Below, one piece after another: positions 18,578 to 59,114 of a DNA stretch of 64,000 nt; the stretch's first letter is position 1; each line of letters starts with the position of its first letter. The stretch is from positions 77,249 through 141,248 of the forward strand of contig JAYVTZ010000005.1 in the NCBI GenBank assembly GCA_043788365.1, given 5' to 3'. The notes beneath the pieces were generated by a model. That model searched no databases. It was not told the origin of the DNA and worked only from the letters and a program-made list of their open reading frames with translations. Origin of the DNA: Burkholderiaceae bacterium (GTDB lineage: Bacteria > Patescibacteriota > Saccharimonadia > Saccharimonadales > AQU-01). Position numbers and translations under genes: made by a program.

Positions 18578-20290
18578 CTAAGTCGTAGGATTCATTGGTG
18601 GGGGCGTCATCGACGGTGGAACCATAGGAGGAGGAGTTGGCGGTGGTAGCGTTTGGTTTTGAGCCGGATTAGCCGTTGGTGGCGTAGGCGTATTAGTCGG
18701 CATAATCAACTGATCGGGTGGCATGGTCGCCATCGGTACATTTGGATTAGGTGCTGGGAATACATCACTCACCGTTGGGCCACCAAACGGGTTCGGCAAA
18801 TTGAACCCAAGTCCTGGCTGTGGACTTGCTGGTAGCGGCGCTTCTGGTGCGGATTGGTCGCCATGACCTAAATCGAGATCGATTGGTACCGAATTTAACG
18901 CCGCTAGAGGTGCAGTAGGCTGGCCGCCGTGCTCGGGCGACAGCACTGTTTGACCACCGTTTTCTTTGAGGTGAGAGCTGTTGACTGCTTTCTCGATTTC
19001 TTCGAGAGTCTCGTCGTCACGATCTACGGTCGGTGGCGTAATTGGCGGTGTACCTAAATTAAAAGCTGGACTTGGTGGATTCAAATCAACAACGGGTAAA
19101 GCCGTGGCGGCAACAATTGGTGGTGTTATTGGAGCAATCGCCGGTGCTGGTAAATCTACCGGTTTAGCCTCACCAAACTTGTGTAGAACACCATCGCCGT
19201 CAATATCGATATTATCAATTGGAGCTTCTTTGGGTTCGGGTGGAGACGGTGGCATTTCAAGAGAGATATGCGATGCCTCTTCTTTGGGTTCGGGTGCAGC
19301 CTCGGGAGCTGGTGGATGGGTAGGAACGGGAGCAGGCGCCGGTTGCGGAGTTGGTGGAGGCACTGGTTCTGGAGTGGGAATAGCTGCTGGCTCAGGCGCT
19401 GCTTGGACTACTGGTTCTGGTGGTGTGGGCTGTGGAGTTAAGGCAGCTGCTGGGGCTTCGGCTGGTTGAGGCTGTGGCGATTCAAGATTGGCACTGATTA
19501 ACTTTTGATTAGCGCCGGCTTTCATGAGAATTCCCGCTAAGCTCATAGTTTGCGGCGTAGTCTTGTCATTACTAAATCGCTCGGTTTCAGCCACTATACC
19601 AGTAAGGAAGGCAGTGGCAATCTGCTGATCAAACAATTCAGTCTGTGGGCTGCCCAGTGACTCACTAAGGTCGGCCAAAATCTCACTATAACTGCTCGCC
19701 CCTGGAACGTGCCAATTAATCGAACCCATATCATCCCCGACATCGCCTGTAGTAATACTGACTACTGTGGCGTCGTGTAAAATCCGACCGTGGGCGCGAA
19801 TTGCCTGATCCAAGTCTTCTCTTCTGCCTACTCCTAGAGCAATAATGACGTCAACGTTAAAGTCGCCCTGCCCAAACTCGAGATCATTTTCACTTATGTT
19901 TGTGTGATACGGTGTAATAAATATCTTAACGAAGCGATCTTCTACCTTATAGCGCAATTTATCGGCTTTTGACTTGTCGAGAGCGATAATGAAGTCACGC
20001 AAGCTATCGACATTTTTCTGTATCGTCTTTTCGGGCTCTAGAAAGCTAATTGCAGGCGGGGTATCGCCGCTAAATACAGTAGTGCCATGTTTTTTCAGTT
20101 TGTTTAGTACTAACGTAAAGCCAATGGCGGCAGCAAGTTGGTCGACAGACGGGTTAGCGCTCACTGTCAGTAAAACATTAACAGTCCCTTTTAGCCGTTC
20201 GAGCACCTGTTGCTTAGGATCGGTTGGCAGCTGAACAGTAGTCGGTTCCGGTGGAGACGTATCTAGTGGCGATGGGTCTTGCGGGTTCAT
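18578..20290 (-). CDS. DHH/NrnA-like domain protein with degenerate catalytic motifs and a ~300-aa proline-rich C-terminal region
   Basis: NrnA-like layout: SANPSVD at the DxD position, ALDKS, TPYHTN where DHH is expected, and GIVAETERF where GDTGxF is expected. No DHHA1 GGGH motif. The C-terminal half is P/T/A-rich. Confidence 0.55.
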   Translation of the reverse strand: MNPQDPSPLDTSPPEPTTVQLPTDPKQQVLERLKGTVNVLLTVSANPSVDQLAAAIGFTLVLNKLKKHGTTVFSGDTPPAISFLEPEKTIQKNVDSLRDFIIALDKSKADKLRYKVEDRFVKIFITPYHTNISENDLEFGQGDFNVDVIIALGVGRREDLDQAIRAHGRILHDATVVSITTGDVGDDMGSINWHVPGASSYSEILADLSESLGSPQTELFDQQIATAFLTGIVAETERFSNDKTTPQTMSLAGILMKAGANQKLISANLESPQPQPAEAPAAALTPQPTPPEPVVQAAPEPAAIPTPEPVPPPTPQPAPAPVPTHPPAPEAAPEPKEEASHISLEMPPSPPEPKEAPIDNIDIDGDGVLHKFGEAKPVDLPAPAIAPITPPIVAATALPVVDLNPPSPAFNLGTPPITPPTVDRDDETLEEIEKAVNSSHLKENGGQTVLSPEHGGQPTAPLAALNSVPIDLDLGHGDQSAPEAPLPASPQPGLGFNLPNPFGGPTVSDVFPAPNPNVPMATMPPDQLIMPTNTPTPPTANPAQNQTLPPPTPPPMVPPSMTPPPMNPTT

Positions 20291-23030: not shown

Positions 23031-23903
23031 TTAGACTAGTAGACCGGCCCTAGCAACTTCTGATGCCGCAGATTTAGCAATACGTTCTTGTAGCTTACTC
23101 GGTATTGATAATACTGCTCTTTCGAAATCATCGTAATTACCACTTACCAATAATTGATTGGGATCAATGACCGTATCGTGCACTTCTTTATTCACTAAAA
23201 CGCTATGCGCTTGCTCTACCTGTTCATTACCCAGCGATCCTGGCCCAAGTGTTGGACCTATGGCCGGATCTTCAAATAACTTAGTTATCAGACCCGTATT
23301 TGATGTTTTATCAATCCGATCTAACCCAAAGCGTTCGGCTAATCTTCCCATTGTGGGGTTCGTTAGGCTAACTAACTTTCCTGGTTTTTCGATAAGACCA
23401 GACCGAACCGCAACAACAAGATTCTGGGCTCCTCGTATCCCCTGAAGCATTGCAAAATTTTTCTGAGACTTAAAATTTATCGGGTTTATACCTGCTGAGT
23501 CTTCAACAACACCCCCACCAGTTACTAGTAACGGTAAGAAGTTGATTTCAGATAAGGATTGATCAGAAGTTAGCGACCGAACGGACAGGCCTTGCGAATC
23601 AAAATACCCAACCTTTTTGTACTGCTCTATGCCATCTATCATGCCTTCTAGAGCATTACCACCGATCCGAGGAGCTAGTCCAAGTTCCCTGGTCGCCTCT
23701 ACAACTTTGGCAACTTCTACAGCATCAAGCTTGGGTAGCTGGGGTTTGACTCGATTCGCTCTAGCAACCATTTCTGGCGGAACATAATCAGAAGACCTGT
23801 AGCTGGGAGACCAGTCGATTTCATCAATCTGACCACGAACCTGTCCGTGCTCAGCCGCAACGGGCATACCGACATGGTTGTCAGAGCGATTTGCATCTGT
23901 CAT
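23031..23903 (-). CDS. Hypothetical protein, 290 aa
   Basis: Intact ORF. TGCTATAAT lies 9 nt upstream of the ATG. No recognisable family. Confidence 0.55.
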   Translation of the reverse strand: MTDANRSDNHVGMPVAAEHGQVRGQIDEIDWSPSYRSSDYVPPEMVARANRVKPQLPKLDAVEVAKVVEATRELGLAPRIGGNALEGMIDGIEQYKKVGYFDSQGLSVRSLTSDQSLSEINFLPLLVTGGGVVEDSAGINPINFKSQKNFAMLQGIRGAQNLVVAVRSGLIEKPGKLVSLTNPTMGRLAERFGLDRIDKTSNTGLITKLFEDPAIGPTLGPGSLGNEQVEQAHSVLVNKEVHDTVIDPNQLLVSGNYDDFERAVLSIPSKLQERIAKSAASEVARAGLLV

Positions 23904-24236: not shown

Positions 24237-24797
24237 AATTTTGTTTAGGTCATCACGGGTCTGTTCAAAATCTTTATACCAGACGGCTTGCATGCCTATT
24301 TCGCGCGCCGCCGTGACATACGACTCAACATCGTCAACAAAAACGCATTCGTCCGCCTGAAGTCCCAGTTTATCCAAGATTGCTTGGTAAGCTCGTGGGT
24401 CGGGCTTAACAAAACCAGTCTGGAACGACAATACTATCTCGTCAAACATTTTTACGTCATCTGACTTAAATATTCTGCCCAGCCAGTTGGCCCCAGCGTT
24501 GGACAACATACCAAGCCTATATTTAGGCTTAACGTTTTCACGAATATAGCCAAGTAGATCGTCGTTGGCAACGTTATCCTTGAGTAACTGTCTGGTGGTT
24601 AGGACGTCGACACCAGATATCTGCGATATGGTTTCGGTAAAGTCCTCAAAACTAACAATGCCAACGTCAACTTGTTTTTGGAGGCTGCTAACCTGGTCAA
24701 AAAGGTCTTTATTATCACCAAAGTACTTTGCCCGGTAAGGAATCCAACCATCTCTCGCTAGCACCCCGAAGCAATCAAATATTACGGCTTTAATCAT
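24213..24797 (-). CDS. HAD-superfamily hydrolase
   Basis: N-terminal VIFDCFGV (DxD-type motif I) and C-terminal VFVDD. Confidence 0.8.
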   Translation of the reverse strand: MIKAVIFDCFGVLARDGWIPYRAKYFGDNKDLFDQVSSLQKQVDVGIVSFEDFTETISQISGVDVLTTRQLLKDNVANDDLLGYIRENVKPKYRLGMLSNAGANWLGRIFKSDDVKMFDEIVLSFQTGFVKPDPRAYQAILDKLGLQADECVFVDDVESYVTAAREIGMQAVWYKDFEQTRDDLNKILAADTQN

Positions 24798-25960
24798 TTG
24801 CTCATTGGGAAGCTTAGTTCATGTGTCTTCGGATGCGCAACAACTGTAACACCTAAAATTGCTGGCATCATTTTACCGGTGCTCAGAGCTTTTTGAACTT
24901 GCGCTTGCCTGACTTCATGGAGTCGTTCGGATTCAGCTTGTATATTCGCATCCCCATACTTGCCGTCCGGATTTATAAGGTCAAACTGCGCCTGCTTAGC
25001 CGCCTCACTAGTGAATGTCATATCGTGAACCCCTAGACGACGAATGACCTCTTGTTGTGTCTGTAGTTTTGACGCATCATCTAGGATACCGACTCTGGAC
25101 ATCATTAAGGCCCGTCTATTATAATTTGGCATCTTGCCGTCGCCCGGCATGCCTGCAGTTTCGGCCTCGTCCCTAATGGCGACGACCATGCGGTCTGGGT
25201 CAGCTTGTAAAAGACTCTGATTAATGCCGCTATATACTCTGCCGTGGAAAACCTCTTGTGGGCGAATTGCCCGCGGAGCAGCGCCCAGCTTTGGCCCCAG
25301 CAAATCGGCGTAGTTATCATATGATGTTACCGTCCAAGGTTCTTGAAAGCCCGGATAAATTAATGCGCCTGGAACAGTTTCTAGTCTTGGCTTAATCCCA
25401 TTTTGTAAAAACCCGATGTGGTCTTCGTCATACTCATCGAGCGCTACATCCCTACCGTTTCTAGTCAAAGTTAAAGTTTTATCGTGCCCCTCTTCACTGG
25501 GCACCCATAACACATTGACCCAACGCCTAAAACCATTGGCTCCCGGCTCCGAAGCCTCCACCCTTTGAGCGAAACTACTGGTTATAGCCGAGAACTTAGC
25601 TATTAACCCCTCTGTCTGGCCAATCACGTCTTCGGTTTGATTGATTGCTGCAGTGGGGTCAATACCGTTACTATTATATGAAGCAGTCAGTGCCGCATAC
25701 TCGTCGTGAATACCAGCCATAATATCGACCATCGAAGCGTCGTCATCATAACCTAGCATAGTTCTGACTGTAGCGAGAGGACGAAGTGGCTGGTTCTTTT
25801 TAGCGGTTTTCGCTAGTCTAGTAAACTCAACATCATCGACTTTAGCCAAATCGGCCCCTTTGGCCTCACCGCCCATATATATGCCCATCTGTTTATTAAC
25901 CGCCGTATTTAAGACGGGTAATAATCTTTGGTCTTCAGGAGAAAATAACTGAGCAGGCAT
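24794..25960 (-). CDS. Hypothetical protein, 388 aa, translationally coupled to the HAD hydrolase
   Basis: Its stop overlaps the HAD start (ATGA). No recognisable family. Confidence 0.55.
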   Translation of the reverse strand: MPAQLFSPEDQRLLPVLNTAVNKQMGIYMGGEAKGADLAKVDDVEFTRLAKTAKKNQPLRPLATVRTMLGYDDDASMVDIMAGIHDEYAALTASYNSNGIDPTAAINQTEDVIGQTEGLIAKFSAITSSFAQRVEASEPGANGFRRWVNVLWVPSEEGHDKTLTLTRNGRDVALDEYDEDHIGFLQNGIKPRLETVPGALIYPGFQEPWTVTSYDNYADLLGPKLGAAPRAIRPQEVFHGRVYSGINQSLLQADPDRMVVAIRDEAETAGMPGDGKMPNYNRRALMMSRVGILDDASKLQTQQEVIRRLGVHDMTFTSEAAKQAQFDLINPDGKYGDANIQAESERLHEVRQAQVQKALSTGKMMPAILGVTVVAHPKTHELSFPMSK

Positions 25961-31676: not shown

Positions 31677-32450
31677 GTGCCGAAAGCCTCACTAGAATCA
31701 TATCTAACTGACAATCTCAATGATAGGAAAAATGGTCAAAGAATACCGGCGATAACTCCCGAGCAAGCGGCAAAATTTGCAGCTGTAACCGAACTATTTG
31801 CGACCTGGGGCAATAATTACGGCTTTGATAAGCCTGCCTGCAAAGATGTAGAAATAAGTAGTGATAGTGGCGACCAATGGGTCGATTTTTATCCAGATGA
31901 AGCTGATGAAAATCCGGCAAAATTAGTCTGTGATAGCTGTCCCCATGAGAATGAATGTCTAGGCGTGGCACTAAAAAATCGCGAGAATACTGGTGTATGG
32001 GGTGGCTCAACGCCAAAAGAAAGAAAAAACATTAAACGCAATTATACTCGTTATAACGCAGCTCGGCATGACCAATCTTTAGTTGATTTTGCAATTGAAA
32101 ACCGACACAGATATATTGCCCCAGGGGACGTGCTTGGACCATTTGATTCTAGAAGACCAAAAATTACAAGAGTAGAGGCAGACGCACTATGTCTTAACGG
32201 CGAGACTAGTGACTTATTCGAAAAACTTGACTCATCCGATCAGGAACATCTAGAAGCCGATGACTTTGCGGCAGCAATCGCAATCTGTCTCAACTGCGAA
32301 AATCATCAACGTGGCTGTTATGACCTGCCAATACCCGAGGAGCTGTCTCCGACTGTAGTTGGCGCAAAGATTGTCGGCTGGGTTGATGTTGAATTAAGAC
32401 CGACAAAACAAATGATTGCTGAGGAACTAGAAGCAATTTCAATTAAGTAA
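31677..32450 (+). CDS. Protein with two tandem WhiB-like (Wbl) domains
   Basis: Domain 1 has C55-X29-C85-X2-C88-X5-C94, then GVWGG and a basic KERKNIKR. Domain 2 has C172-X31-C204-X2-C207-X6-C214 without GVWGG. GTG start with GGAG upstream. Confidence 0.75.
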   Translation: MPKASLESYLTDNLNDRKNGQRIPAITPEQAAKFAAVTELFATWGNNYGFDKPACKDVEISSDSGDQWVDFYPDEADENPAKLVCDSCPHENECLGVALKNRENTGVWGGSTPKERKNIKRNYTRYNAARHDQSLVDFAIENRHRYIAPGDVLGPFDSRRPKITRVEADALCLNGETSDLFEKLDSSDQEHLEADDFAAAIAICLNCENHQRGCYDLPIPEELSPTVVGAKIVGWVDVELRPTKQMIAEELEAISIK

Positions 32451-40527: not shown

Positions 40528-41688
40528 TTATCCCTGAACGTGCTTAGTCGGTGAGGTTTTTATCGGCTTTGTTTCACTTGGTTTGGTGGATGCGGCAAGT
40601 GCTGAAGGGCCAGCGGCGGAATCATCAGCCTTGATTGGGATTTCATCTTTTGAATTATCAGTAACAGTCTTGGCACTTTTGTTACGTGTCAATACAAGAA
40701 CTAATCCAGTCACCAGACCTATAGCTATATAGACGACTCCAAAATAGGTTAATAGTTTGTTAATGTCCGTTTTTACCAAGTTCGTGACTGTTTTAACTAT
40801 TGTATTTATAGCAGCGGTTGCCGAGTTACTTTGGTCAAGCTTGGTCTGGAGCTTAGTGAGCGCCATACTAATTGCCCAAACTTCAAGCAACAGAATTACA
40901 CCTACGACAACTAGCCCAGACATTACCTTCCTAACCCCACGTCGCCTATCTTCACTCACGAATATAATAATTAGCGCCGACAGTAATGTCAGTCCACCCA
41001 GAATCATTGGTAGCTGTTGGACTAGCTGATAGTACTGTGGTGCATTCTGATATTTTTGATAAAGCGGCAGTTTAGTAACACCCTCCCCAACCGTAATCGT
41101 GTCGGCTGTGATGATTGGGTTTGCTATAAAATCTTGACCAGTCTTAATATTACTGACTGTTTTTGCGATTTCGGCGTCAGCATTAAAACCTTTTGGTTTA
41201 CAGTTTATTTTAAGTGGGTCGGTCGAATCTGGTATTTGGCCCTTAGTACAAACAGGTATAGAAGCGAGTCTGTCACGACTATAGGCTCCAAGGTTATCAG
41301 CAAAAGTACCCTTAATGGTAGTTAAGTCGATTTTAAAAGTTGGTTTAGTGGTCTTGCCTTCTAGCCATGGTGTCGTGCCATCAATTAGCTGTTCAAAAGT
41401 TGACTGTATAAAGGTTGGAGTAATCGTTTTCTTAATAATGGCCTGAACGGCTGGATCGTCAAATGGCGTACTACTCTCGGCGTTACCGGCAACTTGATTC
41501 TGCTTTTGAGAGTCTTTGGCTTGGGCAATAACGGTGTCAACGACGTTGTCATATATTTTGCTGGCTCGCAATATAGTCTTGATATTATTCGGTTGCACAG
41601 TATTGATAACTGATGTAGTCATCGCCGTTGTGAATAGCAACAAGGTTAAGCCAGAGGCTGCTAAAAAAACAATAAACTTACGAAGCAT
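40528..41688 (-). CDS. Multi-pass membrane protein with a large extracytoplasmic domain, function unknown
   Basis: N-terminal TM helix plus C-terminal TM helices. Start set at the ATG at 41686-41688, 6 nt after TGTACAAT. Confidence 0.55.
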   Translation of the reverse strand: MLRKFIVFLAASGLTLLLFTTAMTTSVINTVQPNNIKTILRASKIYDNVVDTVIAQAKDSQKQNQVAGNAESSTPFDDPAVQAIIKKTITPTFIQSTFEQLIDGTTPWLEGKTTKPTFKIDLTTIKGTFADNLGAYSRDRLASIPVCTKGQIPDSTDPLKINCKPKGFNADAEIAKTVSNIKTGQDFIANPIITADTITVGEGVTKLPLYQKYQNAPQYYQLVQQLPMILGGLTLLSALIIIFVSEDRRRGVRKVMSGLVVVGVILLLEVWAISMALTKLQTKLDQSNSATAAINTIVKTVTNLVKTDINKLLTYFGVVYIAIGLVTGLVLVLTRNKSAKTVTDNSKDEIPIKADDSAAGPSALAASTKPSETKPIKTSPTKHVQG

Positions 41689-41766
41689 GAGCGTATTGTA
41701 CAATATTTCATTGACTAAAAGCTCTAGTAACTTGGGCTGGACCAAACTTATGTTAAAATTCCAATT

Positions 41767-49861: not shown

Positions 49862-51178
49862 TTATATTCCCTTAGGTATTTTAAGCTCTTTACGAATTTG
49901 GTTGCGTCTTAATTGCTCATGATCAAGAACTTCTTTTAGGAGTCCTTGTTTATAGGTTAGTCTTTCAAACTTCGAATCATCTACTTCTTCGCTCATTTCA
50001 GCGTTAAGCCCAGATAACCTATTTAATACTCTTATAACTCCAGCATTTTTCCTAGCAATTTCGTCTAGTGCGGCTTGATTTTCGGCAGCAGCTTCGACTG
50101 GTTCGGGGCGATATTGAACTGGTTGAAGCTTAAATAGGTGAGGTGCTGGCAGAAAAACACCTTTCTCGGCGGTATATCGCTGCATCTCTATGATTCTATG
50201 TTCGGCCCCATAGTTTACCGTGCAGTGGGCTCCAACCATACTAACATCCCTATAGCTTGTCCCCTCGGGAAGATCTTGCTTAAACACCGCACGATAGGTA
50301 ATACCCTCAGCTTCGTCATGCGAACTCGAAAGAGCAATTGCATGCACTTCTGTAGCGCCATCATCAACAGTTATATCTCTTTCCTGCGCGGCGAGCTTAG
50401 CTTTGTCGACATATTCCTTTGAAGATCCGCCACTAATCACCCAGTCATCAAGTATTACCAATCGCCCATCATCTTGCCAGTTGTCGGGATTTGTATTTAA
50501 TCTCGTAGTGGCTCTGACTCTTTCGTCATCAGACAACGCTGCCAACTCCTTACCGACAACTTCCATCACCTTGCTAAGAGCATAGTGATTGCTTTTCGCA
50601 GGAGAGTCATCACGACTCGGCACATAGACATTGATTGGCTTGCCGCCCTCCGAGGTTAATTCAGCTACCCAAGCTTTAGCGATAAATTCTGCACCCTCAT
50701 CAAACTTGTCCTCGCTTAAATATCCAAGCCCACTCTTAAATGTTTCTACCTCTTCGGCATATGCATCATCTCCAGTTTGGACTGCAACAGCACTAACTTG
50801 ATCTAAATATGAACCTAAATCAACAATTGCGTCACCCTCACGCATAACAGGTTCTGTGTGTAGAGCGTAGTAATATTTTGGCTCGATAGGGGCGGCAAAA
50901 GCTTTGGGTTTATAAAATAAATCCCTTGAGTAGGCTTGTGGATTAGTCTCAACATCTTGAATGGTCTCTGTTAGAGTCGGCATTTTATCTACCCAGCCCC
51001 GTTCCCAGAAGTCTGCAATTCTTTCTTGAGTTGTATCAACTGGTCGTACCTCGACTTCTGAACCAACCGAGTACCAATTTCGCATCATTACATCTCTAGA
51101 GTCTTTCGGTATTGTGTCCCAATCTAAAGAAGCTCTGGTAGGGCTAATGTTGGGTGGGCTGGGTATATTAGCGGACAT
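49862..51178 (-). CDS. 437-aa protein with a central phosphoribosyltransferase-like (type I PRT/ComF-like) motif, function unknown
   Basis: LVILDDWVISGGS (50423-50461) resembles the PRPP-binding loop VVVVDDLLATGGT. VYVPSRDDS..SNHYAL lies 53 aa upstream. Start at the ATG at 51176-51178 with GAGG 6 nt upstream. Confidence 0.6.
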   Translation of the reverse strand: MSANIPSPPNISPTRASLDWDTIPKDSRDVMMRNWYSVGSEVEVRPVDTTQERIADFWERGWVDKMPTLTETIQDVETNPQAYSRDLFYKPKAFAAPIEPKYYYALHTEPVMREGDAIVDLGSYLDQVSAVAVQTGDDAYAEEVETFKSGLGYLSEDKFDEGAEFIAKAWVAELTSEGGKPINVYVPSRDDSPAKSNHYALSKVMEVVGKELAALSDDERVRATTRLNTNPDNWQDDGRLVILDDWVISGGSSKEYVDKAKLAAQERDITVDDGATEVHAIALSSSHDEAEGITYRAVFKQDLPEGTSYRDVSMVGAHCTVNYGAEHRIIEMQRYTAEKGVFLPAPHLFKLQPVQYRPEPVEAAAENQAALDEIARKNAGVIRVLNRLSGLNAEMSEEVDDSKFERLTYKQGLLKEVLDHEQLRRNQIRKELKIPKGI

Positions 51179-51434
51179 GTTCAGCCTCGGTGCCATGATC
51201 AATATTAGCGCTAGCCTGTAAGTATGCATCAGCGGCACTGACAGAATCATCGGCTAGTAATATATCTGCCATACTATTTGCAACTTGTGCTCGGCGTCTG
51301 TCGCTATCAGTCATTTCATATGCCTGTGCGAGTTCTAGGGTCGAACCAGAAACTACCCTATAGGTTCGGGCCTGAAAATCGACTTGTATAACGTTATGAT
51401 TAGAGTGATTCGTCACATATAGACTGTAACACAT
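51168..51434 (-). CDS. Small hypothetical protein, 88 aa (uncertain)
   Basis: ORF overlaps the downstream start by 11 nt. No SD and no -10 at the right distance. Confidence 0.3.
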   Translation of the reverse strand: MCYSLYVTNHSNHNVIQVDFQARTYRVVSGSTLELAQAYEMTDSDRRRAQVANSMADILLADDSVSAADAYLQASANIDHGTEAEHVR

Positions 51435-53668: not shown

Positions 53669-54238
53669 TTACCGACTACTTAACGACCTTGGGGGCTTCA
53701 ACTTAGTCCGGTTGGCTAGTTTTTCGGCAGTCCGGCCCAATTTATCGCTTAGTAACTTGAAGCCGAGTCCGATTCCCTCTATATAAGTTAGCCCGCCGGT
53801 TTCAGAGAAAGGTGAGGGCATATTATCTCTTTCAGCGCGTATGGGCGTACCGCTTTCGTCAACTGGCAATAAGAGATATCTAGCCGAGCCACTTGGGCTG
53901 AGTAGGGCTGATTTTCCTAACTTGGCCAGAATTCTATGTCTTGGTACGCCCAGTTTATTTGCTGCGCTGGCATGCGATAATCCCTCTTGTAGCGAAGTCT
54001 TGGTACCTTCAATTATTCCAGATACCACTGGTGCTGCGCCCTCAGTTAGTGATTGACCAGCGCGAGCCAACAGACTTGAAGCAGCTCGGAATAAGTACGG
54101 AGCCACGACCCTTTTGTCTCTTACATCATCTGCAATATCTAGCGGGTTGGGTTCTGTACTTTCTGCAGTAGCCGCGGGCGTAAAAGCAACCTGCTGTCTG
54201 TCACTATTTAAATTGAATAAGTAATTGATAGGTCTCAT
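53669..54238 (-). CDS. Hypothetical protein, 189 aa
   Basis: Intact ORF. TGCCATAAT lies 9 nt upstream of the ATG. No recognisable family. Confidence 0.5.
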   Translation of the reverse strand: MRPINYLFNLNSDRQQVAFTPAATAESTEPNPLDIADDVRDKRVVAPYLFRAASSLLARAGQSLTEGAAPVVSGIIEGTKTSLQEGLSHASAANKLGVPRHRILAKLGKSALLSPSGSARYLLLPVDESGTPIRAERDNMPSPFSETGGLTYIEGIGLGFKLLSDKLGRTAEKLANRTKLKPPRSLSSR

Positions 54239-54367
54239 GTATTTTGCATTATGGCATATTTTTACAATAAATATTAATTACTGTCTCAAGCCATAAGCAT
54301 TTTTTACTATATAATTGCTAATAAGTAGTATTTGTGCTATTGTTTGCTCAGTAACGGGAGTAGTGTT

Positions 54368-54922
54368 ATGGGTTTATTTACACCTAAGTCGGATTCTAAT
54401 AATGTATCTTCTTCTGACATCCAGGATCAGTATCAAGCAGTTCCGAAAGACCGAACTTCAGTAGCTTGGCTACTTGCGGCCTTGTCACTAGTAGCTACGA
54501 TTGTAATTTTTGTTGGTTCTTTTTATGGCGGTAGAGCAATATACCGTAAAGTTTCAAACAAGAATCAATCTGGGGCTGCCGTGACTCAAGACACGGCTAC
54601 ACCGACTCCATCACCAACTCCAAGCGGAAATGTTGACCTAGTCAGCGCTGCCACCTCTTCAACTGTAACTGCCAAAGTCCTAACACCCACAACGACTCCA
54701 GCTCCATTACCAACTGCAACACCGACTCCTATAGCGACACCAGTTGTTACACCAGCTCCTACACCAAGTCCAACGCCAGCTCCAACTGTCGCCAAAACGG
54801 TGCCGGCTAGTAAGCTTGCAAACACTGGGTCTCAGAGTTTTGGGCTCGAAGTCTTTGTCATAACTACGGTTCTGGCTACTATATTACATAGCCTATACAC
54901 CCGAAAAAAACTAAAAGCTTAA
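54368..54922 (+). CDS. Sortase-anchored surface protein (LAxTG-type sorting signal), P/T-rich
   Basis: N-terminal TM/signal anchor and a PT-rich stalk. The C-terminal signal is LANTG (54815-54829) plus a hydrophobic stretch plus RKKLKA. ATG at 54368 with GGGAG upstream. Confidence 0.7.
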   Translation: MGLFTPKSDSNNVSSSDIQDQYQAVPKDRTSVAWLLAALSLVATIVIFVGSFYGGRAIYRKVSNKNQSGAAVTQDTATPTPSPTPSGNVDLVSAATSSTVTAKVLTPTTTPAPLPTATPTPIATPVVTPAPTPSPTPAPTVAKTVPASKLANTGSQSFGLEVFVITTVLATILHSLYTRKKLKA

Positions 54923-54929
54923 GCAAAAT

Positions 54930-55595
54930 CTAGCTTTCGTGTTGCTGAGTGAAGTAATTAATCTCGTTAATTATATCGAGTAGAGCTTGAGCCTTAACTT
55001 TTTCATCCTCAATTGCCTGGGCAGACTCATAGGCGGCCTTAATTAGCGATTGGTCGTCGGAAGCCTGAATCATCATCATAGTAGTGCGAAACTTCTCTTC
55101 AGCGTTTTGCTCTAGCTTGCCAATTAGTGGCGAAAGTTGCTGCAAAGCGTTTTGTTTAATACTCAAGAGATCATCGGCCGGTTTATCATCGCTGTCCTGC
55201 TTTTCAGATGACTGGTCATCGGCAATTTCGGGCTTATCATCGCCAAAAGTCTCATTCGACTCCTCACTAGCAATTGGCAGCTCAGGCATAGACATATCTG
55301 GAGACGAGAAAGCGGTATCAACTTGGGGGGTGTCATTAGCGACTGGAGCCGTACTAGGACTAGTCGTATCAGCGTAAGCTTGTTGCGACATCATTGTTGG
55401 CTGAGGGGTATCAGCTGGGGCGTTAAAGGCCATGGTGGTTGGAAAATTTATACTATTGGATGGGTCTGTCGAAGGGGTTGAAGCAAGATTTTCTGGTACC
55501 GGCATCGGTGCAGGTGTCGATGTTGGATAGGCGGGCGTGATAGAAGGCGCACCCGTAACCGCTTGATCTGTTTGATTATTATTGTCGTCGAACAT
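54930..55595 (-). CDS. Acidic P/T/S-rich hypothetical protein with a helical C-terminal domain
   Basis: Intact ORF. The ATG at 55593-55595 is preceded by GGGGG; the track start is a GTG two codons earlier. Confidence 0.5.
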   Translation of the reverse strand: MFDDNNNQTDQAVTGAPSITPAYPTSTPAPMPVPENLASTPSTDPSNSINFPTTMAFNAPADTPQPTMMSQQAYADTTSPSTAPVANDTPQVDTAFSSPDMSMPELPIASEESNETFGDDKPEIADDQSSEKQDSDDKPADDLLSIKQNALQQLSPLIGKLEQNAEEKFRTTMMMIQASDDQSLIKAAYESAQAIEDEKVKAQALLDIINEINYFTQQHES

Positions 55596-55724
55596 GCCCA
55601 CCCCCTATTTCTGCCGATGCAGTTAATTAATTCATGCCTGCTTTAGTTATCAAATGATAATTTTTAATCTACAATAAGAATAGTAACAAAAACATAAGAG
55701 TTACGCAAAGAGAGGGAACGACCA

Positions 55725-56771
55725 ATGCTTGATGACTTAAAATTTATTGAAAAATATGACCCAGAGGACGCGCTAGGCATTACCGCCAAGCAATCGTCAC
55801 AACTAACACATAGTTATGATTTGCCTGAGCTGTCAGGCCAATTTGAAAATATCGTCCACGCCGGGATGGGCGGCTCAGCACTCTGGGCACTACTTAGCAC
55901 TAGTTGGCCGAAGTACACACTACCGTTTGAGGTCGTGCGCGGCTATGATATCCCAACTTATGTCAGCGACAAAACTCTTTTCATTGCCTCGAGCTATTCT
56001 GGCAACACCGAAGAAACCTTATCTTCAATTGCCCAAGCCGAGGCTAAAGGAGCATTTATCGTCGTTATCGCTTCAGGCGGAAAATTAGCTGATATTGCCC
56101 GCGAAAAAAATTACCCATTAATCGCTTTGCCGAAAATTGATAAGCCGCGCTATGGAGCATTGTATGGACTACGTGGTCTTGTGATTTTAGGTGAAAAACT
56201 TGGATTTTTGGCAACACCTAATGCTGTCCAAGAGATGGAACAAATGGCTGGCTTTATCGAGGAATCAATTCAAGGTTGGCTGCCAACAGTTCCTACTTCG
56301 TCAAATATCGCAAAACAAATCGCTAATGATGTAATGGGTAAATCGCCAGTTTTATATGCTGGACCATTACTTACTCCAGCGGCACATAAGTGGAAAATTA
56401 GTTTTAATGAAAATTCCAAAAACGTCGCTTGGGAATATCCTTTCCCGGAATTTAACCACAATGAATTTACTGGCTGGACGTCACATCCAACCGACAAACC
56501 ATATTCGGTAATCTATTTGCAGTCATCATTCGACAACGACCGCATCAAAAAGCGTTTTGACCTTAGCGACAAGCTGCTTAGCGGCCGTTGGCCATCACCA
56601 ATAAGAGTAGACGCGCAGGGTGATTCTCAGCTTAAACAGCTACTTTGGTCAGTCGCACTCGGCGATTTTGTCAGTTTATATCTAGCATTTCTAAATGGCC
56701 ACAGCCCAATCGACACCGGCGACAACGATATTATTGAGAAATTTAAGAAGGAGCTCGGGCCAAATGTCTGA
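55725..56771 (+). CDS. Bifunctional phosphoglucose/phosphomannose isomerase (SIS-domain, archaeal-type PGI/PMI)
   Basis: 348 aa. SIS-type GMGGSA and SYSGNTEET motifs, with length and layout of the PGI/PMI family. Confidence 0.75.
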   Translation: MLDDLKFIEKYDPEDALGITAKQSSQLTHSYDLPELSGQFENIVHAGMGGSALWALLSTSWPKYTLPFEVVRGYDIPTYVSDKTLFIASSYSGNTEETLSSIAQAEAKGAFIVVIASGGKLADIAREKNYPLIALPKIDKPRYGALYGLRGLVILGEKLGFLATPNAVQEMEQMAGFIEESIQGWLPTVPTSSNIAKQIANDVMGKSPVLYAGPLLTPAAHKWKISFNENSKNVAWEYPFPEFNHNEFTGWTSHPTDKPYSVIYLQSSFDNDRIKKRFDLSDKLLSGRWPSPIRVDAQGDSQLKQLLWSVALGDFVSLYLAFLNGHSPIDTGDNDIIEKFKKELGPNV

Positions 56772-57216
56772 CGATAATCCGGCAGCTGGCGGAGTGCCAT
56801 ATTTTGACCCTAGTAGTTTTTCTAACCAACCCTATGCGAGAAGAGTCGAAAAACCATGGGGATACGAGACACATTGGGTCCCCGTCGACAGGCCTTACAT
56901 GGGCAAAATTGAACATCTGAACGCTGGCGCCAGAATGTCTCTTCAGATACATGATAAGAAGCAGGAGAGCTGGTTAATGATGGCCGGCAAAGCAAAAGTC
57001 ATCTGGGAGGATGATAAAGGTGAAATGGTGGAAACTGAGCTACTGCCTGGACAGGGCTACTCTTGTAACATTGGCCAGAAACACCGTCTTGTTGGTATAA
57101 CAGATTGTGACATCATTGAAGTATCCACCCCTGAAATAGGTACGACTTGGCGCCTAGAAGACGACTATAAGCGTCCTAATGAAACTGAAGAACAGCGTCA
57201 AATTGAACGAGCCTAG
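56764..57216 (+). CDS. Cupin-domain protein (type II mannose-6-phosphate isomerase C-terminal-like)
   Basis: EKPWGYE...SLQIHDKKQESW...GQKHRL is a cupin motif. The ATG at 56764 overlaps the upstream stop by 8 nt. Confidence 0.7.
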   Translation: MSDDNPAAGGVPYFDPSSFSNQPYARRVEKPWGYETHWVPVDRPYMGKIEHLNAGARMSLQIHDKKQESWLMMAGKAKVIWEDDKGEMVETELLPGQGYSCNIGQKHRLVGITDCDIIEVSTPEIGTTWRLEDDYKRPNETEEQRQIERA

Positions 57217-57740
57217 ATTGGTTTGTTTTTTAATTTTAGTTTGAACGCTAGATAGCTGGTTATTAAATGTAGGCCAAAATACTCGACTATTACAGTAGCC
57301 ACAAATAGATTACTCCAAAGTATAAGTGGTGAAACCATAATTAAGCCACCAAATATATAGTCAAGCTGGTCGAACGGAAACCAACTATCACCAGCCTTAA
57401 CACCTACTCGACGCTTGAAATGGCTTTCAATCGCATCTCCAGCCAGAGCACCAAAACCCATCAAAGCCCCGGCCAAAGTTATAAAAAGAATATTGTTAGG
57501 TGAGGCTTTATAAAAAGTATGCGCCTCGATGTTTGCAGCAAGACTAGCTACAATCACGCCACTAACCAGGCCACGCCATGTCTTGTTTGGGCCAAATATT
57601 CGCTCACCTTTATACTTTTTACCGAAGTCGAGTGGCGTCTTCCACCTATTTAGCAACGGAACTTTATTGGCTAGGACTGGTGCCATATTTGCAAGACCAG
57701 CTGGGAGGAAAAAAAAGTAGGCCTGGATTAGAAGATTCAC
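57213..57740 (-). CDS. CDP-archaeol synthase (CarS/DUF46)-family cytidylyltransferase homologue
   Basis: LPAGLANMAPVL, PLDFGKKYKGERIFGPNKTWRG and GDAIESHFKRRVG...FPFDQLD align with the archaeal CarS pattern. 5 TM helices. Confidence 0.75.
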   Translation of the reverse strand: MNLLIQAYFFFLPAGLANMAPVLANKVPLLNRWKTPLDFGKKYKGERIFGPNKTWRGLVSGVIVASLAANIEAHTFYKASPNNILFITLAGALMGFGALAGDAIESHFKRRVGVKAGDSWFPFDQLDYIFGGLIMVSPLILWSNLFVATVIVEYFGLHLITSYLAFKLKLKNKPI

Positions 57741-58384
57741 TTTTTAGAAATTAACTTTCTTAATTTATTTGCCTTTGGGTAGAGCAGGGTGCGTAGTGGT
57801 GGCCTGCTATTAACCAGCTTAGCATTTTTTAGCAGCTCAACTAAATTTGTTACATCTGGAACTCCCCCGAGTACGGAATAAGTTGCGCCAATACCTTTTA
57901 AGCCATGGGCATCGCTACTTGCAGCCATAGCCACGCCGTTTTTTGTTGCCCAATCAATAGCTTTACTACTGAAATTCTGAAATACAGCCCGCCCGTTGTG
58001 GACTTCGATAATGTCGACATAACCTTTAATGTCATCTAGGGAACTAGCTGTAATACCGCTGCGAACCGTCTCAAAAGGATGGGGAATATAAACCAATCCA
58101 CCTTGTTTCTTAATCTCATCTGCAGTTTCTTTAGGAGTTAGCCCGGGGCTAACTTTAGCGCCTATAAACAATCCGATTATTTCACCATCGGTGGTCATAA
58201 TCTCTTCGCCAACAATAACTTTATTTGAAAATTCTTCGCCAAGCTCAAGTGCAAAAGTAATCGAATTGTGGTCTGTTATGGCCACAAAATCTAGTAGCTG
58301 ATCGTTTAGTAACTTTCTATATTGTTGTTTGCGAATTCCGCCGTCCGGGGACGTGGCTGAATGGGTGTGAAAATCAGCTTTCAT
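57737..58384 (-). CDS. PHP-domain metal-dependent phosphoesterase
   Basis: MKADFHTHS is the HxH motif, with later conserved His/Asp residues. Overlaps both neighbours. Confidence 0.7.
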   Translation of the reverse strand: MKADFHTHSATSPDGGIRKQQYRKLLNDQLLDFVAITDHNSITFALELGEEFSNKVIVGEEIMTTDGEIIGLFIGAKVSPGLTPKETADEIKKQGGLVYIPHPFETVRSGITASSLDDIKGYVDIIEVHNGRAVFQNFSSKAIDWATKNGVAMAASSDAHGLKGIGATYSVLGGVPDVTNLVELLKNAKLVNSRPPLRTLLYPKANKLRKLISKK

Positions 58385-59012
58385 TAGATTTTTTATTGAG
58401 CGAGTTACTAATATTAATTAGTCGTTGGAAAGCGGTAAACCAAGAGCTTAGCGCTATGACAATGATAGCCAAAATCAATCTGCCAGACAATAGACCAATG
58501 ATGAGTACAGACATTCTGATCTCAAAACGCATCAAACCATCTTGGAAAAGCCGATTAACCTCGTTGGCGGGCAATTTTCCAGCTACGGCTGTTTCGCCCT
58601 TAGCCTTAACATAACTAACAAGTAACGAACCGCCACAAGCTAGGACTGCCCATACAGTCATATTTGGTCGACCAGTTGCGACCATAGCGTAGGCAGCACC
58701 ACTATATAACAAGACTTCTTTCATACGATCAGTTGTGGCATCAAGTAGCATGCCTGCATTGCTTGCCTTGCCCTGCAAACGCGCCAGCTCACCGTCCAGT
58801 GAGTCAAACAGGCCAAAAATTACTAACATAAGTGCTGCCCATTTGTACTCTCTTACACCTACCAAAAGTGCAATAAAAATATGCGCAACTAAACCAGTCA
58901 AAGTAACGGTATTAGGGCTCAACTTGCCGCCACTTAAACTATTAAGTGCCTTGGCCAGTTTGCCTATAAACTTCTTAACAATGTTTCTGATGCTATCTAA
59001 AATCTTATTCAT
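58374..59012 (-). CDS. CDP-alcohol phosphatidyltransferase
   Basis: DSLDGELARLQGKASNAGMLLDATTD matches D-x2-D-G-x2-A-R-x8-G-x3-D-x3-D. Multi-TM. Confidence 0.85.
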   Translation of the reverse strand: MNKILDSIRNIVKKFIGKLAKALNSLSGGKLSPNTVTLTGLVAHIFIALLVGVREYKWAALMLVIFGLFDSLDGELARLQGKASNAGMLLDATTDRMKEVLLYSGAAYAMVATGRPNMTVWAVLACGGSLLVSYVKAKGETAVAGKLPANEVNRLFQDGLMRFEIRMSVLIIGLLSGRLILAIIVIALSSWFTAFQRLINISNSLNKKSNES

Positions 59013-59114
59013 AAGCTTATGTCTTCATTATATAGGAGTGCGCTGGCTTTACTAAATAGCCCTATGACAGCCCAATAATCAGGATAGATACTTATCTGTT
59101 AAACTATTTAATAT

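What the first reader, a model, noticed from the sequence alone, without database searches (positions are those of the whole stretch)
57213..59012. Three overlapping genes: CarS-like cytidylyltransferase, PHP phosphatase and CDP-alcohol phosphatidyltransferase
Seen in sequence: three minus-strand genes overlap each other (58374-59012, 57737-58384, 57213-57740). The first has the complete CDP-alcohol phosphatidyltransferase signature. The second is a PHP phosphoesterase. The third aligns along its length to archaeal CDP-archaeol synthase (CarS/DUF46) rather than to bacterial CdsA. Established knowledge: CarS makes the CDP-activated lipid in archaea. CDP-alcohol transferases of the PIP/AIP-synthase type transfer it to a phosphorylated alcohol such as inositol-1-phosphate. 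A phosphatase then removes the phosphate. Inference: the operon encodes a self-contained route of activate, transfer, dephosphorylate. It would build a polar head group on a lipid backbone, possibly one scavenged from a host, using an archaeal-type activating enzyme in a bacterium.
Basis: partly seen in the sequence, partly recalled or inferred. Interest (0 to 1): 0.6.

Follow-up and report, generated by a model that had tools for sequence, protein, structure and literature searches.

The report
Saccharibacterial lipid head-group salvage operon
Three overlapping genes in a Saccharibacteria (CPR) genome most likely re-activate a scavenged membrane-lipid backbone with CTP, attach a phosphorylated alcohol (probably inositol phosphate) and then remove that phosphate, with a CarS-family enzyme and a PHP phosphatase doing the jobs that CdsA and PgpA-type enzymes do in ordinary bacteria.

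Summary
Three minus-strand ORFs (58374-59012, 57737-58384, 57213-57740) overlap by 11 and 4 nt. They encode a CDP-alcohol phosphatidyltransferase with the full signature, a PHP phosphoesterase with an intact metal site, and a CarS-family cytidylyltransferase. The CarS-like model superposes on Aeropyrum CarS (TM 0.75/0.83) and not on CdsA (TM 0.35).

The host is a Saccharibacterium. The trio keeps the same order in about 75-79 of 80 related genomes and also occurs in a second, unrelated neighbourhood.

Outside Saccharibacteria, CarS-like genes in other CPR bacteria and in DPANN archaea abut CDP-alcohol transferase genes. In one genome the two are fused. In one contig the gene order is CDP-OH transferase, then a PgpA::CarS fusion, so PgpA sits where PHP sits here. 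In another contig a diacylglycerol-kinase gene is the middle gene.

This supports activate, transfer, dephosphorylate on a salvaged lipid. The transferase scores best against AIP/PIP synthase models and keeps their TM6 phosphate-binding arginine. No inositol-phosphate synthase is in the window.

The lipid substrate, the alcohol and the PHP substrate remain inferred. Saccharibacterial PI synthesis from scavenged lipid was proposed in 2018. The enzyme types are the new part.

The parts
58374..59012 (-). CDP-alcohol phosphatidyltransferase (class I, about 6 TM) of the PIP/AIP-synthase type. Proposed step 2: transfers the lipid-phosphate from the CDP-lipid to a phosphorylated alcohol.
   Evidence: Pfam PF01066 49.6 bits. 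NCBIfam best hits are AIP synthase 102.7 and PIP synthase 86.8 bits, against pgsA 19.5; all are below the equivalog cut-offs. The best PDB relatives are all PIP synthases (6WM5/6H53 at E 1e-10, 5D92), then AF2299 and DIPPS. The full 8-residue signature is present. S133, K136 and R197 align with MtPIPS S132, K135 and R195/RsPIPS R191 (Clarke 2015).
57737..58384 (-). PHP-family metal-dependent phosphoesterase, soluble, with a basic C-terminal tail. Proposed step 3: removes the head-group phosphate (candidate PIP/PGP phosphatase).
   Evidence: PHP_C 28.7 bits. The AF2 model has pLDDT 90.9 and Foldseek places it in the PHP fold (3E38, 2ANU, RNase AM). H6, H8, D14, H39, E61, H102, D158 and H160 are 100% conserved in 32 homologues. 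It sits between the two lipid genes in 79/80 relatives, with a 4-nt overlap into the CarS-like gene in 45/79. It occupies the position that PgpA occupies in L086.
57213..57740 (-). CarS-family (PF01864) membrane CTP:lipid-phosphate cytidylyltransferase with five long helices in the model. Proposed step 1: makes the CDP-activated lipid donor.
   Evidence: Pfam 94.9 bits full length. NCBIfam CarS 125 bits (cut-off 148) against CdsA 29 (cut-off 385). 5GUF matches at E 1.4e-13 by sequence. The AF2 model has pLDDT 93.4 and superposes on 5GUF at TM 0.75/0.83, rmsd 1.9 A, while TmCdsA gives TM 0.35. G101-D102-x3-S106-x2-K109-R110 and D124-Q125-x-D127 are invariant in 24 homologues and shared with ApCarS. 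The GTG start at 57740 is supported by conservation of the N-terminal FFLPAGxANMAPV helix; a public gene call starts at Met19.
59013..59114 (.). 102-nt divergent intergenic region between the operon and argS. This is the only non-coding DNA upstream of the trio, so it presumably holds the promoter.
   Evidence: A weak sigma-70-like match lies on the minus strand at 59102-59075 (TTAACA-16-GATTAT, 9/12). It is a consensus match only. The operon ends convergently against the cupin gene at 57216.

Best explanation
The three genes form one translationally coupled operon for polar head-group (re)synthesis on a pre-existing lipid backbone in a Saccharibacterium, a CPR lineage described as unable to make its own lipids.

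Step 1 (family shown, substrate inferred): the CarS-family enzyme condenses CTP with a lipid phosphate, most likely phosphatidic acid derived from host or environmental lipid, to give a CDP-lipid (CDP-diacylglycerol-like).

Step 2 (family shown, acceptor inferred): the PIP/AIP-synthase-like CDP-alcohol transferase moves the lipid-phosphate onto a phosphorylated alcohol. myo-Inositol-1-phosphate is the best guess, and the product would be a phosphatidylinositol-phosphate-like lipid.

Step 3 (inferred from position only): the PHP metallo-phosphoesterase removes the terminal phosphate to give the mature lipid (PI-like). It would fill the role that PgpA-family enzymes fill in Bacteroides and in another Patescibacterium.
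For: Families and folds.

Operon structure: overlaps of 11 and 4 nt. Order is conserved in 75-79 of 80 Saccharibacteria loci whose proteins are only 42-71% identical. The PHP-to-CarS junction is a 4-nt overlap in 45 and a 1-nt overlap in 12 of 79 loci. The trio is also found, at 38-49% identity, in a different neighbourhood with PIF1/NYN ... MraZ/RsmH.

Coupling of CarS-like to CDP-alcohol transferases beyond this lineage:
- An overlapping pair in Parcubacteria.
- Three tandem transferases followed by CarS in a Nanoarchaeote.
- A fused CDP-OH::CarS-like protein in a complete Nomurabacteria genome.

Coupling to a lipid-phosphate phosphatase: CDP-OH followed by a PgpA::CarS-like fusion, next to a PLD-type (cardiolipin-synthase-like) gene. 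PgpA-family BT_1525 is the proven PIP-DAG phosphatase of Bacteroides.

Coupling to diacylglycerol salvage: CDP-OH, DAGK_cat/YegS lipid kinase, CarS-like in that order.

Acceptor: the best models and PDB relatives are inositol-phosphate-using enzymes. The CPR partners of CarS-like also score best against PIP/AIP synthase models. The TM6 Arg and the S/K of the inositol-phosphate pocket are conserved.

Context: Patescibacteria are described as lacking lipid synthesis. A PA -> CDP-DAG -> PI route from scavenged lipid was already proposed for a soil Saccharibacterium.
Against: - Characterised CarS enzymes strongly prefer unsaturated archaetidic acid over fatty-acyl PA, and AfCarS cannot complement an E. 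coli cdsA mutant. Use of PA by this clade is therefore an assumption.
- All three proteins score below NCBIfam equivalog cut-offs.
- No inositol-1-phosphate synthase, and no other inositol gene, is in the 64 kb window.
- The counterpart of the second phosphate-binding Arg (RsPIPS R153) depends on the alignment used.
- The nearest structural relatives of PHP are uncharacterised proteins and RNase AM, a nucleic-acid enzyme.
- PHP is absent from the CDP-OH+CarS pairs of other CPR/DPANN contigs and from locus L002. Loci L026, L055 and L091 keep PHP+CarS without the transferase.
- The wider region (argS ... pgi, groEL) is also syntenic, so adjacency within Saccharibacteria alone is weak evidence.
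- The cultured oral Saccharibacterium S. epibionticum has none of PF01864, PF01148 or PF13263, and its single CDP-alcohol transferase is non-essential.
Confidence: 0.55

Rival explanations
1. Same three-step logic, but the alcohol is sn-glycerol-3-phosphate. The transferase would be a divergent PGP synthase, PHP the PGP phosphatase, and the product phosphatidylglycerol, which could feed cardiolipin synthesis.
For: The positional analogue of PHP is PgpA, whose name-giving activity is PGP phosphatase, and a PLD-type cardiolipin-synthase-like gene lies next to that module. No inositol-phosphate synthase is in the window. PG is the generic bacterial anionic lipid (established knowledge). All NCBIfam scores are below cut-off, so specificity is not fixed.
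Against: pgsA models score 19.5 bits, against 102.7 and 86.8 for AIP and PIP synthase. All top PDB relatives use inositol phosphate. Starr et al. list a separate CDP-DAG:G3P phosphatidyltransferase in a Saccharibacterium in addition to a 'PI synthase'. PgpA-family proteins can also be PIP phosphatases.
Confidence: 0.2
2. PHP is not the terminal phosphatase. One possibility is that it acts upstream as a phosphodiesterase that strips head groups from scavenged phospholipids to make the phosphatidate that CarS-like consumes. The other is that it is an unrelated nucleotide/RNA phosphoesterase (TrpH/RNase AM-like) that only sits in a frozen gene order.
For: The tightest pair is PHP+CarS (79/80). 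It persists where the transferase is missing (L026, L055, L091). The closest characterised structural neighbour is RNase AM, and JGI names the protein TrpH. PHP enzymes include phosphodiesterases (established knowledge). The whole region is syntenic.
Against: PHP is inserted between two lipid genes with overlapping stop/start codons in most genomes. The trio moves as a unit to another neighbourhood. A head-group phosphatase domain (PgpA) occupies the same slot elsewhere. A PIP-synthase-type product needs a phosphatase, and no other candidate is adjacent. The cultured S. epibionticum carries a separate 310-aa RNase AM-like PHP protein annotated as a 5'-3' exoribonuclease.
Confidence: 0.17
3. 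The CarS-like enzyme keeps archaeal-type specificity and activates an isoprenoid lipid phosphate (archaetidic-acid-like or polyprenyl phosphate). In that case the operon would decorate isoprenoid lipids rather than diacylglycerol lipids.
For: Characterised CarS enzymes prefer DGGGP and reject PA. The model superposes closely on ApCarS. The nearest non-CPR relatives are DPANN archaeal CarS at 37-40% identity.
Against: No GGGPS, DGGGPS or G1P-dehydrogenase genes are in the window or the flanks examined. One CPR module has a diacylglycerol-kinase-family gene abutting CarS-like. CPR lipids reported so far are fatty-acid based (lysolipids; cited). The CPR sequences form a cluster separate from DPANN, which leaves room for a substrate switch.
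Confidence: 0.06
4. The module makes a soluble di-inositol-phosphate-like osmolyte (DIPP synthase plus phosphatase) rather than a lipid.
For: DIPPS is among the PDB and NCBIfam relatives (4MND at E 2e-6; 50.7 bits). That pathway also ends with a phosphatase (established knowledge).
Against: DIPPS needs a soluble CTP:inositol-1-P cytidylyltransferase domain, which is absent. The partner here is an integral-membrane CarS-family enzyme. DIPPS scores far below AIP/PIP synthase.
Confidence: 0.02

Closest known systems
Actinobacterial phosphatidylinositol pathway (CdsA -> PIP synthase PgsA1 -> PIP phosphatase)
   Same: Same proposed chemistry. The transferase's best solved relatives are M. tuberculosis/M. 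kansasii PgsA1 and Renibacterium PIPS. The signature, the S/K of the acceptor pocket and the TM6 Arg are conserved.
   Different: The activating enzyme is CarS-family, not CdsA. The transferase scores 86.8 bits against a 170-bit cut-off. The actinobacterial phosphatase was 'as-yet-unidentified' in 2015, whereas here a PHP protein is the positional candidate. No MIPS gene was seen nearby.
Bacteroides thetaiotaomicron inositol-lipid cluster BT_1522-BT_1526 (PIPS BT_1523, PgpA-family PIP phosphatase BT_1525, MIPS BT_1526)
   Same: A clustered PIP-synthase-type transferase plus a dedicated head-group phosphatase. The BT1523-type model is hit at 69.3 bits. The pathway logic is proven there by knock-outs.
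   Different: The phosphatase is PHP, which is unrelated to PgpA. A cytidylyltransferase is part of the operon. There is no MIPS and no IPC-synthase gene.
Archaeal CarS -> archaetidylinositol-phosphate synthase route
   Same: CarS-family activating enzyme (5GUF TM 0.75/0.83). The best NCBIfam hit of the transferase is AIP synthase (102.7 bits). DPANN archaea also cluster CarS with CDP-alcohol transferases.
   Different: The host is a bacterium with no archaeal core-lipid genes in view. Both proteins fall below the archaeal equivalog cut-offs (125<148 and 102.7<180). The CPR sequences cluster apart from DPANN. The lipid substrate is probably different.
E. coli CdsA-PgsA-PgpA/B/C phosphatidylglycerol pathway
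   Same: The same activate-transfer-dephosphorylate logic. A Patescibacterium has the order CDP-OH, PgpA::CarS-like.
   Different: None of the three window proteins is an orthologue (CdsA 29 bits, pgsA 19.5 bits; PHP is unrelated to PgpA, PgpB or PgpC).
PHP-family phosphoesterases TM0559, BVU_3505 and RNase AM (TrpH/YciV)
   Same: Fold and metal-ligand set.
   Different: Only about 20% identity. There is no significant sequence hit to any solved structure. The protein is short (215 aa) and has a conserved basic C-terminal tail (RPPLxTLLYPKxNRLRKK). The genomic coupling to lipid genes was not met in the papers read here.

Membership tests
CarS / CDP-archaeol synthase family (Pfam PF01864; NCBIfam NF003114) | Full-length match to the family profile above the curated threshold | tested here: met
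   PF01864 94.9 bits against a cut-off of 22, covering residues 2-172 of 175.
CarS / CDP-archaeol synthase family (Pfam PF01864; NCBIfam NF003114) | Score above the NCBIfam equivalog cut-off (same function as archaeal CarS) | tested here: not met
   125.3 bits against a cut-off of 148. The protein is a family member but not a certified equivalog.
CarS / CDP-archaeol synthase family (Pfam PF01864; NCBIfam NF003114) | Compact five-helix membrane fold of ApCarS (5GUF) rather than the nine-helix CdsA fold | tested here: met
   AF2 model with pLDDT 93.4. 5GUF: TM 0.75/0.83, rmsd 1.9 A over 160 columns. TmCdsA 4Q2E/4Q2G: TM 0.34-0.35.
CarS / CDP-archaeol synthase family (Pfam PF01864; NCBIfam NF003114) | Conserved cytoplasmic-loop signature shared with ApCarS (GDxxxSxxKR ... 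DQxD) | tested here: met
   G101, D102, S106, K109, R110, D124, Q125 and D127 are invariant in 24 homologues and align with the same residues of 5GUF.
CarS / CDP-archaeol synthase family (Pfam PF01864; NCBIfam NF003114) | Substrate is unsaturated archaetidic acid (DGGGP), with discrimination against fatty-acyl PA | not testable with these tools
   This is known for M. thermautotrophicus membranes and AfCarS. It needs an enzyme assay here.
CdsA (phosphatidate cytidylyltransferase, PF01148 / NF008635) | Full-length match above the cut-off, and the CdsA fold | tested here: not met
   NF008635 29 bits against a cut-off of 385. PF01148 matches only residues 47-115. The fold comparison gives TM 0.35.
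Class I CDP-alcohol phosphatidyltransferases (PF01066) | D-x2-D-G-x2-A-R-x8-G-x3-D-x3-D signature in a multi-pass membrane protein | tested here: met
   D70...D95 are present and conserved. PF01066 scores 49.6 bits.
PIP synthase / AIP synthase (NF045883, NF040950) | Score above the equivalog cut-off | tested here: not met
   AIP synthase 102.7 against 180; PIP synthase 86.8 against 170. These are nevertheless the best-scoring models by a wide margin.
PIP synthase / AIP synthase (NF045883, NF040950) | TM6 arginine that binds the phosphate of inositol phosphate (RsPIPS R191 / MtPIPS R195) | tested here: met
   R197 in an FQR motif aligns with the RsPIPS FQR in HMMER and in two MAFFT runs. It is >=95% conserved. 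Definition from Clarke 2015.
PIP synthase / AIP synthase (NF045883, NF040950) | TM5 arginine (RsPIPS R153 / MtPIPS R155) | tested here: inconclusive
   The invariant R166 aligns with R153 in the 74-sequence MAFFT alignment, but not in the HMMER pairwise alignment or the 10-sequence MAFFT alignment.
PIP synthase / AIP synthase (NF045883, NF040950) | Ser and Lys of the acceptor pocket (MtPIPS S132, K135) | tested here: met
   S133 and K136 in SYVKA align with SYIKA of MtPIPS.
PIP synthase / AIP synthase (NF045883, NF040950) | A supply of inositol-1-phosphate (a MIPS gene in the cluster or genome) | tested here: not met
   No PF07994 or PF01658 protein is among the ORFs of >=120 aa in the 64 kb window. 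The rest of the genome could not be searched.
PHP phosphoesterase superfamily (PF02811/PF13263) | PHP (beta/alpha)7-barrel fold with the His/Asp/Glu metal-ligand set | tested here: met
   Foldseek E 1e-9 to 1e-12 to 3E38, 2ANU and 7UG9. H6, H8, D14, H39, E61, H102, D158 and H160 are invariant. PHP_C is above its cut-off; the PHP domain is below (21.2 against 26.4).
Lipid head-group phosphate phosphatases (PgpA family; PIP-DAG phosphatase BT_1525) | Homology to PgpA (PF04608) | tested here: not met
   There is no PgpA hit. The claim is functional analogy by gene position only.
Lipid head-group phosphate phosphatases (PgpA family; PIP-DAG phosphatase BT_1525) | Hydrolysis of PIP-DAG or PGP | not testable with these tools
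   Needs an enzyme assay or genetics.

The most novel reading that the evidence does not exclude
The CPR clade of CarS-family enzymes has crossed the 'lipid divide' in substrate use. It would be the CDP-diacylglycerol synthase of many Patescibacteria, replacing CdsA. The small PHP protein would be a previously unrecognised class of phospholipid head-group phosphatase (a PIP or PGP phosphatase) that displaces PgpA non-orthologously. Together with the PIPS-like transferase they would form a minimal salvage pathway that lets lipid-auxotrophic epibionts rebuild inositol (or glycerol) phospholipids from host-derived diacylglycerol or phosphatidate.
Probability: 0.3. Interest if true: 0.75.

Novelty: new variant of a known kind. 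Interest (0 to 1): 0.52.

Why it matters
Patescibacteria/CPR are thought to be unable to make membrane lipids, and a 2024 perspective states that their lipid uptake and processing mechanisms have not been identified.

A widely conserved, translationally coupled head-group operon gives a concrete and testable handle on how these epibionts turn scavenged lipid into their own membrane.

It would also show a CarS-family enzyme working in bacteria. Characterised CarS and CdsA enzymes are described as upholding the archaeal/bacterial lipid divide.

Finally, it would nominate a PHP enzyme for the head-group dephosphorylation step. The enzyme for that step was unidentified in Actinobacteria in 2015 and is PgpA-type in Bacteroides.

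The idea that Saccharibacteria make PI from scavenged phosphatidate is already published, and the genes carry routine database names. The advance is therefore in enzyme identity and comparative evidence, not in a new pathway concept.

Tried and rejected
- Sequence search of PHP against solved structures gave nothing significant (best hit TM0559, E 0.08). The fold search gave only uncharacterised PHP proteins and RNase AM, so no substrate could be read off.
- The afdb50 fold library was not available.
- Ten literature searches found no paper linking CDP-archaeol synthase or a PHP phosphatase to Saccharibacteria/CPR lipid metabolism. The only co-occurrence was incidental, and the search combining PIP phosphatase, PgsA1 and PHP-domain terms (any two of four required) returned nothing. 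The library holds only open-access papers, so absence there is weak evidence.
- Coleman et al. 2019 has no CarS or CPR text in the held version. The Ren et al. 2017 CarS structure paper is not held, so catalytic residues are argued from conservation, not from the paper.
- Whether the genome also has a canonical cdsA, pgsA, MIPS, plsC or dgk could not be tested.
- The CDP-OH::CarS fusion proved to be a singleton (one genome, two assemblies). It is supporting evidence, not a widespread architecture.
- The L085 (Pacebacteria) context was uninformative because of a scaffold gap.
- A soluble DIP-type pathway and a recent archaeal transfer into this genome were considered and rejected (see the rival explanations; composition is uniform at about 43-49% GC; the CPR cluster is large and separate from DPANN).


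Full report
1. THE OBSERVATION

- 58374-59012: 212 aa, ATG start.
- 57737-58384: 215 aa, ATG start.
- 57213-57740: 175 aa, GTG start.

The sequence shows an 11-nt overlap between genes 1 and 2. It shows a 4-nt GTGA overlap between genes 2 and 3. Upstream lies a 102-nt gap to the divergent argS gene. Downstream the operon ends convergently against a cupin gene.

Pfam and NCBIfam confirm the three family calls.
- Gene 1: CDP-OH_P_transf at 49.6 bits. The best NCBIfam models are AIP synthase (102.7) and PIP synthase (86.8), against pgsA at 19.5.
- Gene 2: PHP_C at 28.7 bits. The PHP domain itself scores 21.2, just under its cut-off.
- Gene 3: CarS-like at 94.9 bits over the full length. The NCBIfam CarS equivalog scores 125 bits (cut-off 148), while CdsA scores 29 bits (cut-off 385).

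The complete D-x2-DG-x2-AR-x8-G-x3-D-x3-D signature is present in gene 1.

2. WHO CARRIES IT

A scan of one genome per GTDB species found at least 460 stretches encoding relatives of the CarS-like protein. The best 80 carry Saccharibacteria or Saccharimonadales titles, apart from five labelled only 'bacterium' or 'Patescibacteria group' and one labelled Limnocylindrales. The closest locus (L001) shares 91% GroEL identity with the window. The window is therefore from a Saccharibacterium (CPR/Patescibacteria). Composition is uniform across the window, so nothing marks the trio as a recent island.

3. IS THE TRIO A UNIT?

In the 80 loci, tblastn finds the PHP gene in 79 and the transferase in 75. 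They are always in the order transferase, PHP, CarS-like, at 42-71% protein identity. The PHP-to-CarS junction is a 4-nt overlap in 45 loci and a 1-nt overlap in 12 of 79. The transferase-to-PHP junction is mostly between -14 and +3 nt.

The surrounding genes (argS, pgi, groEL) are also syntenic, so this alone could be a frozen gene order. Two further contigs argue against that. L089 and L090 carry the same trio at 38-49% identity in an unrelated neighbourhood: PIF1 helicase and NYN upstream, MraZ and RsmH downstream.

Variants exist:
- L002 has transferase plus CarS without PHP.
- L026, L055 and L091 have PHP plus CarS without the transferase.

4. EVIDENCE FROM OUTSIDE SACCHARIBACTERIA

An exhaustive profile-free search found 1974 cluster representatives related to the CarS-like protein, 796 of them at E<=1e-10. 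Source names place the relatives in other CPR lineages (Parcubacteria, Pacebacteria, Nomurabacteria). They also place them in DPANN archaea (Nanoarchaeota, Woesearchaeota). NCBI routinely names them 'CDP-archaeol synthase'.

Gene contexts are informative:
- A Parcubacterium has a PIPS-like transferase overlapping the CarS-like gene.
- A Nanoarchaeote has three tandem CDP-alcohol transferases followed by CarS.
- A complete Nomurabacteria genome encodes a single CDP-OH::CarS-like polypeptide. This fusion is a singleton, seen in two assemblies.
- A groundwater Patescibacterium has a CDP-alcohol transferase, then a PgpA::CarS-like fusion, next to a PLD-type gene.
- A JGI contig has a CDP-alcohol transferase, then a DAGK_cat/YegS lipid kinase, then CarS-like, with the genes abutting.

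The transferase-PgpA-CarS order mirrors the window's transferase-PHP-CarS order, which puts PHP in the slot of a lipid head-group phosphatase. The kinase variant points to diacylglycerol -> phosphatidate -> CDP-lipid salvage.

5. THE INDIVIDUAL PROTEINS

CarS-like. The sequence match to Aeropyrum pernix CarS (5GUF) has E 1.4e-13 over the full length. The GDxxxSxxKR and DQxD motifs are invariant in 24 homologues. The AF2 model (pLDDT 93.4) superposes on 5GUF with TM 0.75/0.83 and rmsd 1.9 A. Against TmCdsA the TM score is only 0.35. Average-linkage clustering of 279 sequences puts the window in a large CPR cluster (186 sequences) beside a DPANN cluster (58). The window protein is 35% identical to ApCarS, 37-40% to DPANN sequences and 47% to a Parcubacteria sequence.

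Transferase. The best solved relatives are all inositol-phosphate users: Mycobacterium and Renibacterium PIP synthases, then AF2299 and DIPPS. Clarke et al. define two arginines, plus a Ser and a Lys, as the inositol-phosphate pocket. Here S133, K136 and the TM6 Arg R197 align robustly. The TM5 Arg counterpart (the invariant R166) depends on the alignment used.

PHP. No solved structure is related by sequence. The AF2 model (pLDDT 90.9) is a PHP barrel closest to the uncharacterised BVU_3505 and TM0559 and to RNase AM. Eight metal ligands are invariant, there is no transmembrane segment, and the C-terminal tail is conserved and basic.

6. MECHANISM

The best-supported reading has three steps.
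- Step 1: the CarS-like enzyme makes a CDP-lipid from CTP and a salvaged lipid phosphate.
- Step 2: the PIPS-like transferase moves the lipid-phosphate to a phosphorylated alcohol. Inositol-1-phosphate is most likely and glycerol-3-phosphate is the main alternative.
- Step 3: PHP removes the terminal phosphate.

What is shown: the family and fold of all three proteins, the operon structure, and repeated independent genomic coupling of CarS-like to CDP-alcohol transferases, to a PgpA phosphatase and to a DAG kinase.

What is inferred: the lipid substrate, the alcohol, and the PHP substrate.

The chief counter-evidence:
- Characterised CarS enzymes reject fatty-acyl phosphatidate, and AfCarS cannot replace E. 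coli CdsA.
- No inositol-phosphate synthase is in the window.
- The nearest characterised relative of PHP acts on RNA.

7. WHAT IS KNOWN ALREADY

Starr et al. (2018) proposed that a soil Saccharibacterium cannot make fatty acids. They suggested it converts scavenged phosphatidate to CDP-DAG through a 'putative phosphatidate cytidylyltransferase'. From there it would make PGP, cardiolipin or PI and possibly PI-mannosides.

The Bacteroides PIP-DAG phosphatase is a PgpA-family protein. The actinobacterial PIP phosphatase was unidentified in 2015. A 2024 perspective says that lipid uptake and processing in Patescibacteria are unresolved.

I found no paper that notes the CarS-type identity of the activating enzyme in CPR, or a PHP phosphatase in this role. 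The library is open-access only.

The trio is not universal. [quoted passage not shown] It has only one CDP-alcohol transferase, which is non-essential.

8. VERDICT

This is a new variant of a known kind of pathway (bacterial PI/PG head-group synthesis), with non-canonical enzymes at two of the three steps. It is moderately interesting and directly testable.

Noticed in passing
Loci L001-L080, immediately downstream of the CarS-like gene (e.g. L071:6531-7388, minus strand); absent from the window: A PIG-L/LmbE-family deacetylase gene lies convergent to the CarS-like gene in 45 of 80 relatives. It scores 113 bits against PF02585, the GlcNAc-PI de-N-acetylase family. By NCBIfam it best resembles BshB2, Mca and MshB, all below cut-off. 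Several family members act on GlcNAc-inositol conjugates, so this could hint at a glycosylated inositol lipid, but it is not co-directional with the trio.
   Followed up: partly
Loci L001-L092, between argS and the CDP-OH gene (e.g. L016:3070-3963, L092:1994-2677); absent from the window: A DUF1361 multi-pass membrane protein (PF07099, 123 bits) is divergently adjacent to the operon in 59 of 80 relatives. It stays next to PHP-CarS even where the transferase is missing (L026, L055, L091). Its function is unknown.
   Followed up: partly
window 57687-57740 (N-terminus of the CarS-like gene); L081:937-1410: A public gene call for the identical sequence starts the CarS-like protein at Met19 (157 aa). 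The upstream 18 residues (MNLLIQAYFFFLPAGLAN) are conserved in homologues and align with helix 1 of ApCarS. The GTG at 57740, which overlaps the PHP stop codon, is therefore the likely true start.
   Followed up: yes
JGI metagenome 3300071325 contig; L086:2007-4686; L082:5001-5993: Alternative module architectures occur around CarS-like genes in other CPR bacteria. One has a DAG-kinase-family gene as the middle gene. One has a PgpA::CarS-like fusion beside a PLD-type cardiolipin-synthase-like gene. One has a CDP-OH::CarS-like fusion.
   Followed up: partly
window 24794-25960 (-): A 388-aa protein has a soluble acyl-ACP-desaturase-type domain (FA_desaturase_2, 50 bits), in an organism presumed to lack fatty-acid synthesis. 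It has no NCBIfam match. It might modify scavenged acyl chains.
   Followed up: no
window 55725-57216 (+): A bifunctional phosphoglucose/phosphomannose isomerase (348 aa) is followed by a small cupin with a mannose-6-phosphate-isomerase C-terminal-type domain, convergent on the operon. The listed cupin ORF overlaps pgi by 77 nt, and a public gene call uses a later start (150 aa). The cupin is present in only 11 of 80 relatives. It could feed hexose phosphates to inositol or mannose lipid glycosylation, but this was not tested.
   Followed up: no
Wang et al. 2023, Tables S1/S2 (PMC10633639): The cultured oral Saccharibacterium Southlakia epibionticum ML1 lacks CarS, CdsA, PHP_C, PgpA and MIPS domains altogether. 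Its single CDP-alcohol phosphatidyltransferase (SEML1_0297) is non-essential by Tn-seq. The operon is therefore a feature of only some Saccharibacteria, and host-associated lineages may have lost it.
   Followed up: partly
window 31677-32450 (+): A 257-aa protein has a WhiB domain only at residues 69-118. WhiB is typical of Actinobacteria, the usual hosts of Saccharibacteria. The long flanks are unannotated.
   Followed up: no
window 17218-20290 (-), 23031-23903 (-), 40528-41745 (-), 49862-51250 (-), 53669-55601: Several sizeable ORFs (219, 217, 570, 290, 405, 462, 189, 196 and 223 aa) have no Pfam match. The C-terminal part of the 223-aa protein at 54930-55601 is conserved (60-79% identity) next to pgi in 71 of 80 relatives.
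   Followed up: no
Loci such as L002:7995-8639: A DinB-like protein with a mycothiol maleylpyruvate isomerase N-terminal domain (MDMPI_N, 33 bits) sits between the CarS-like gene and pgi in 11 relatives. This is another family that is typical of Actinobacteria.
   Followed up: no
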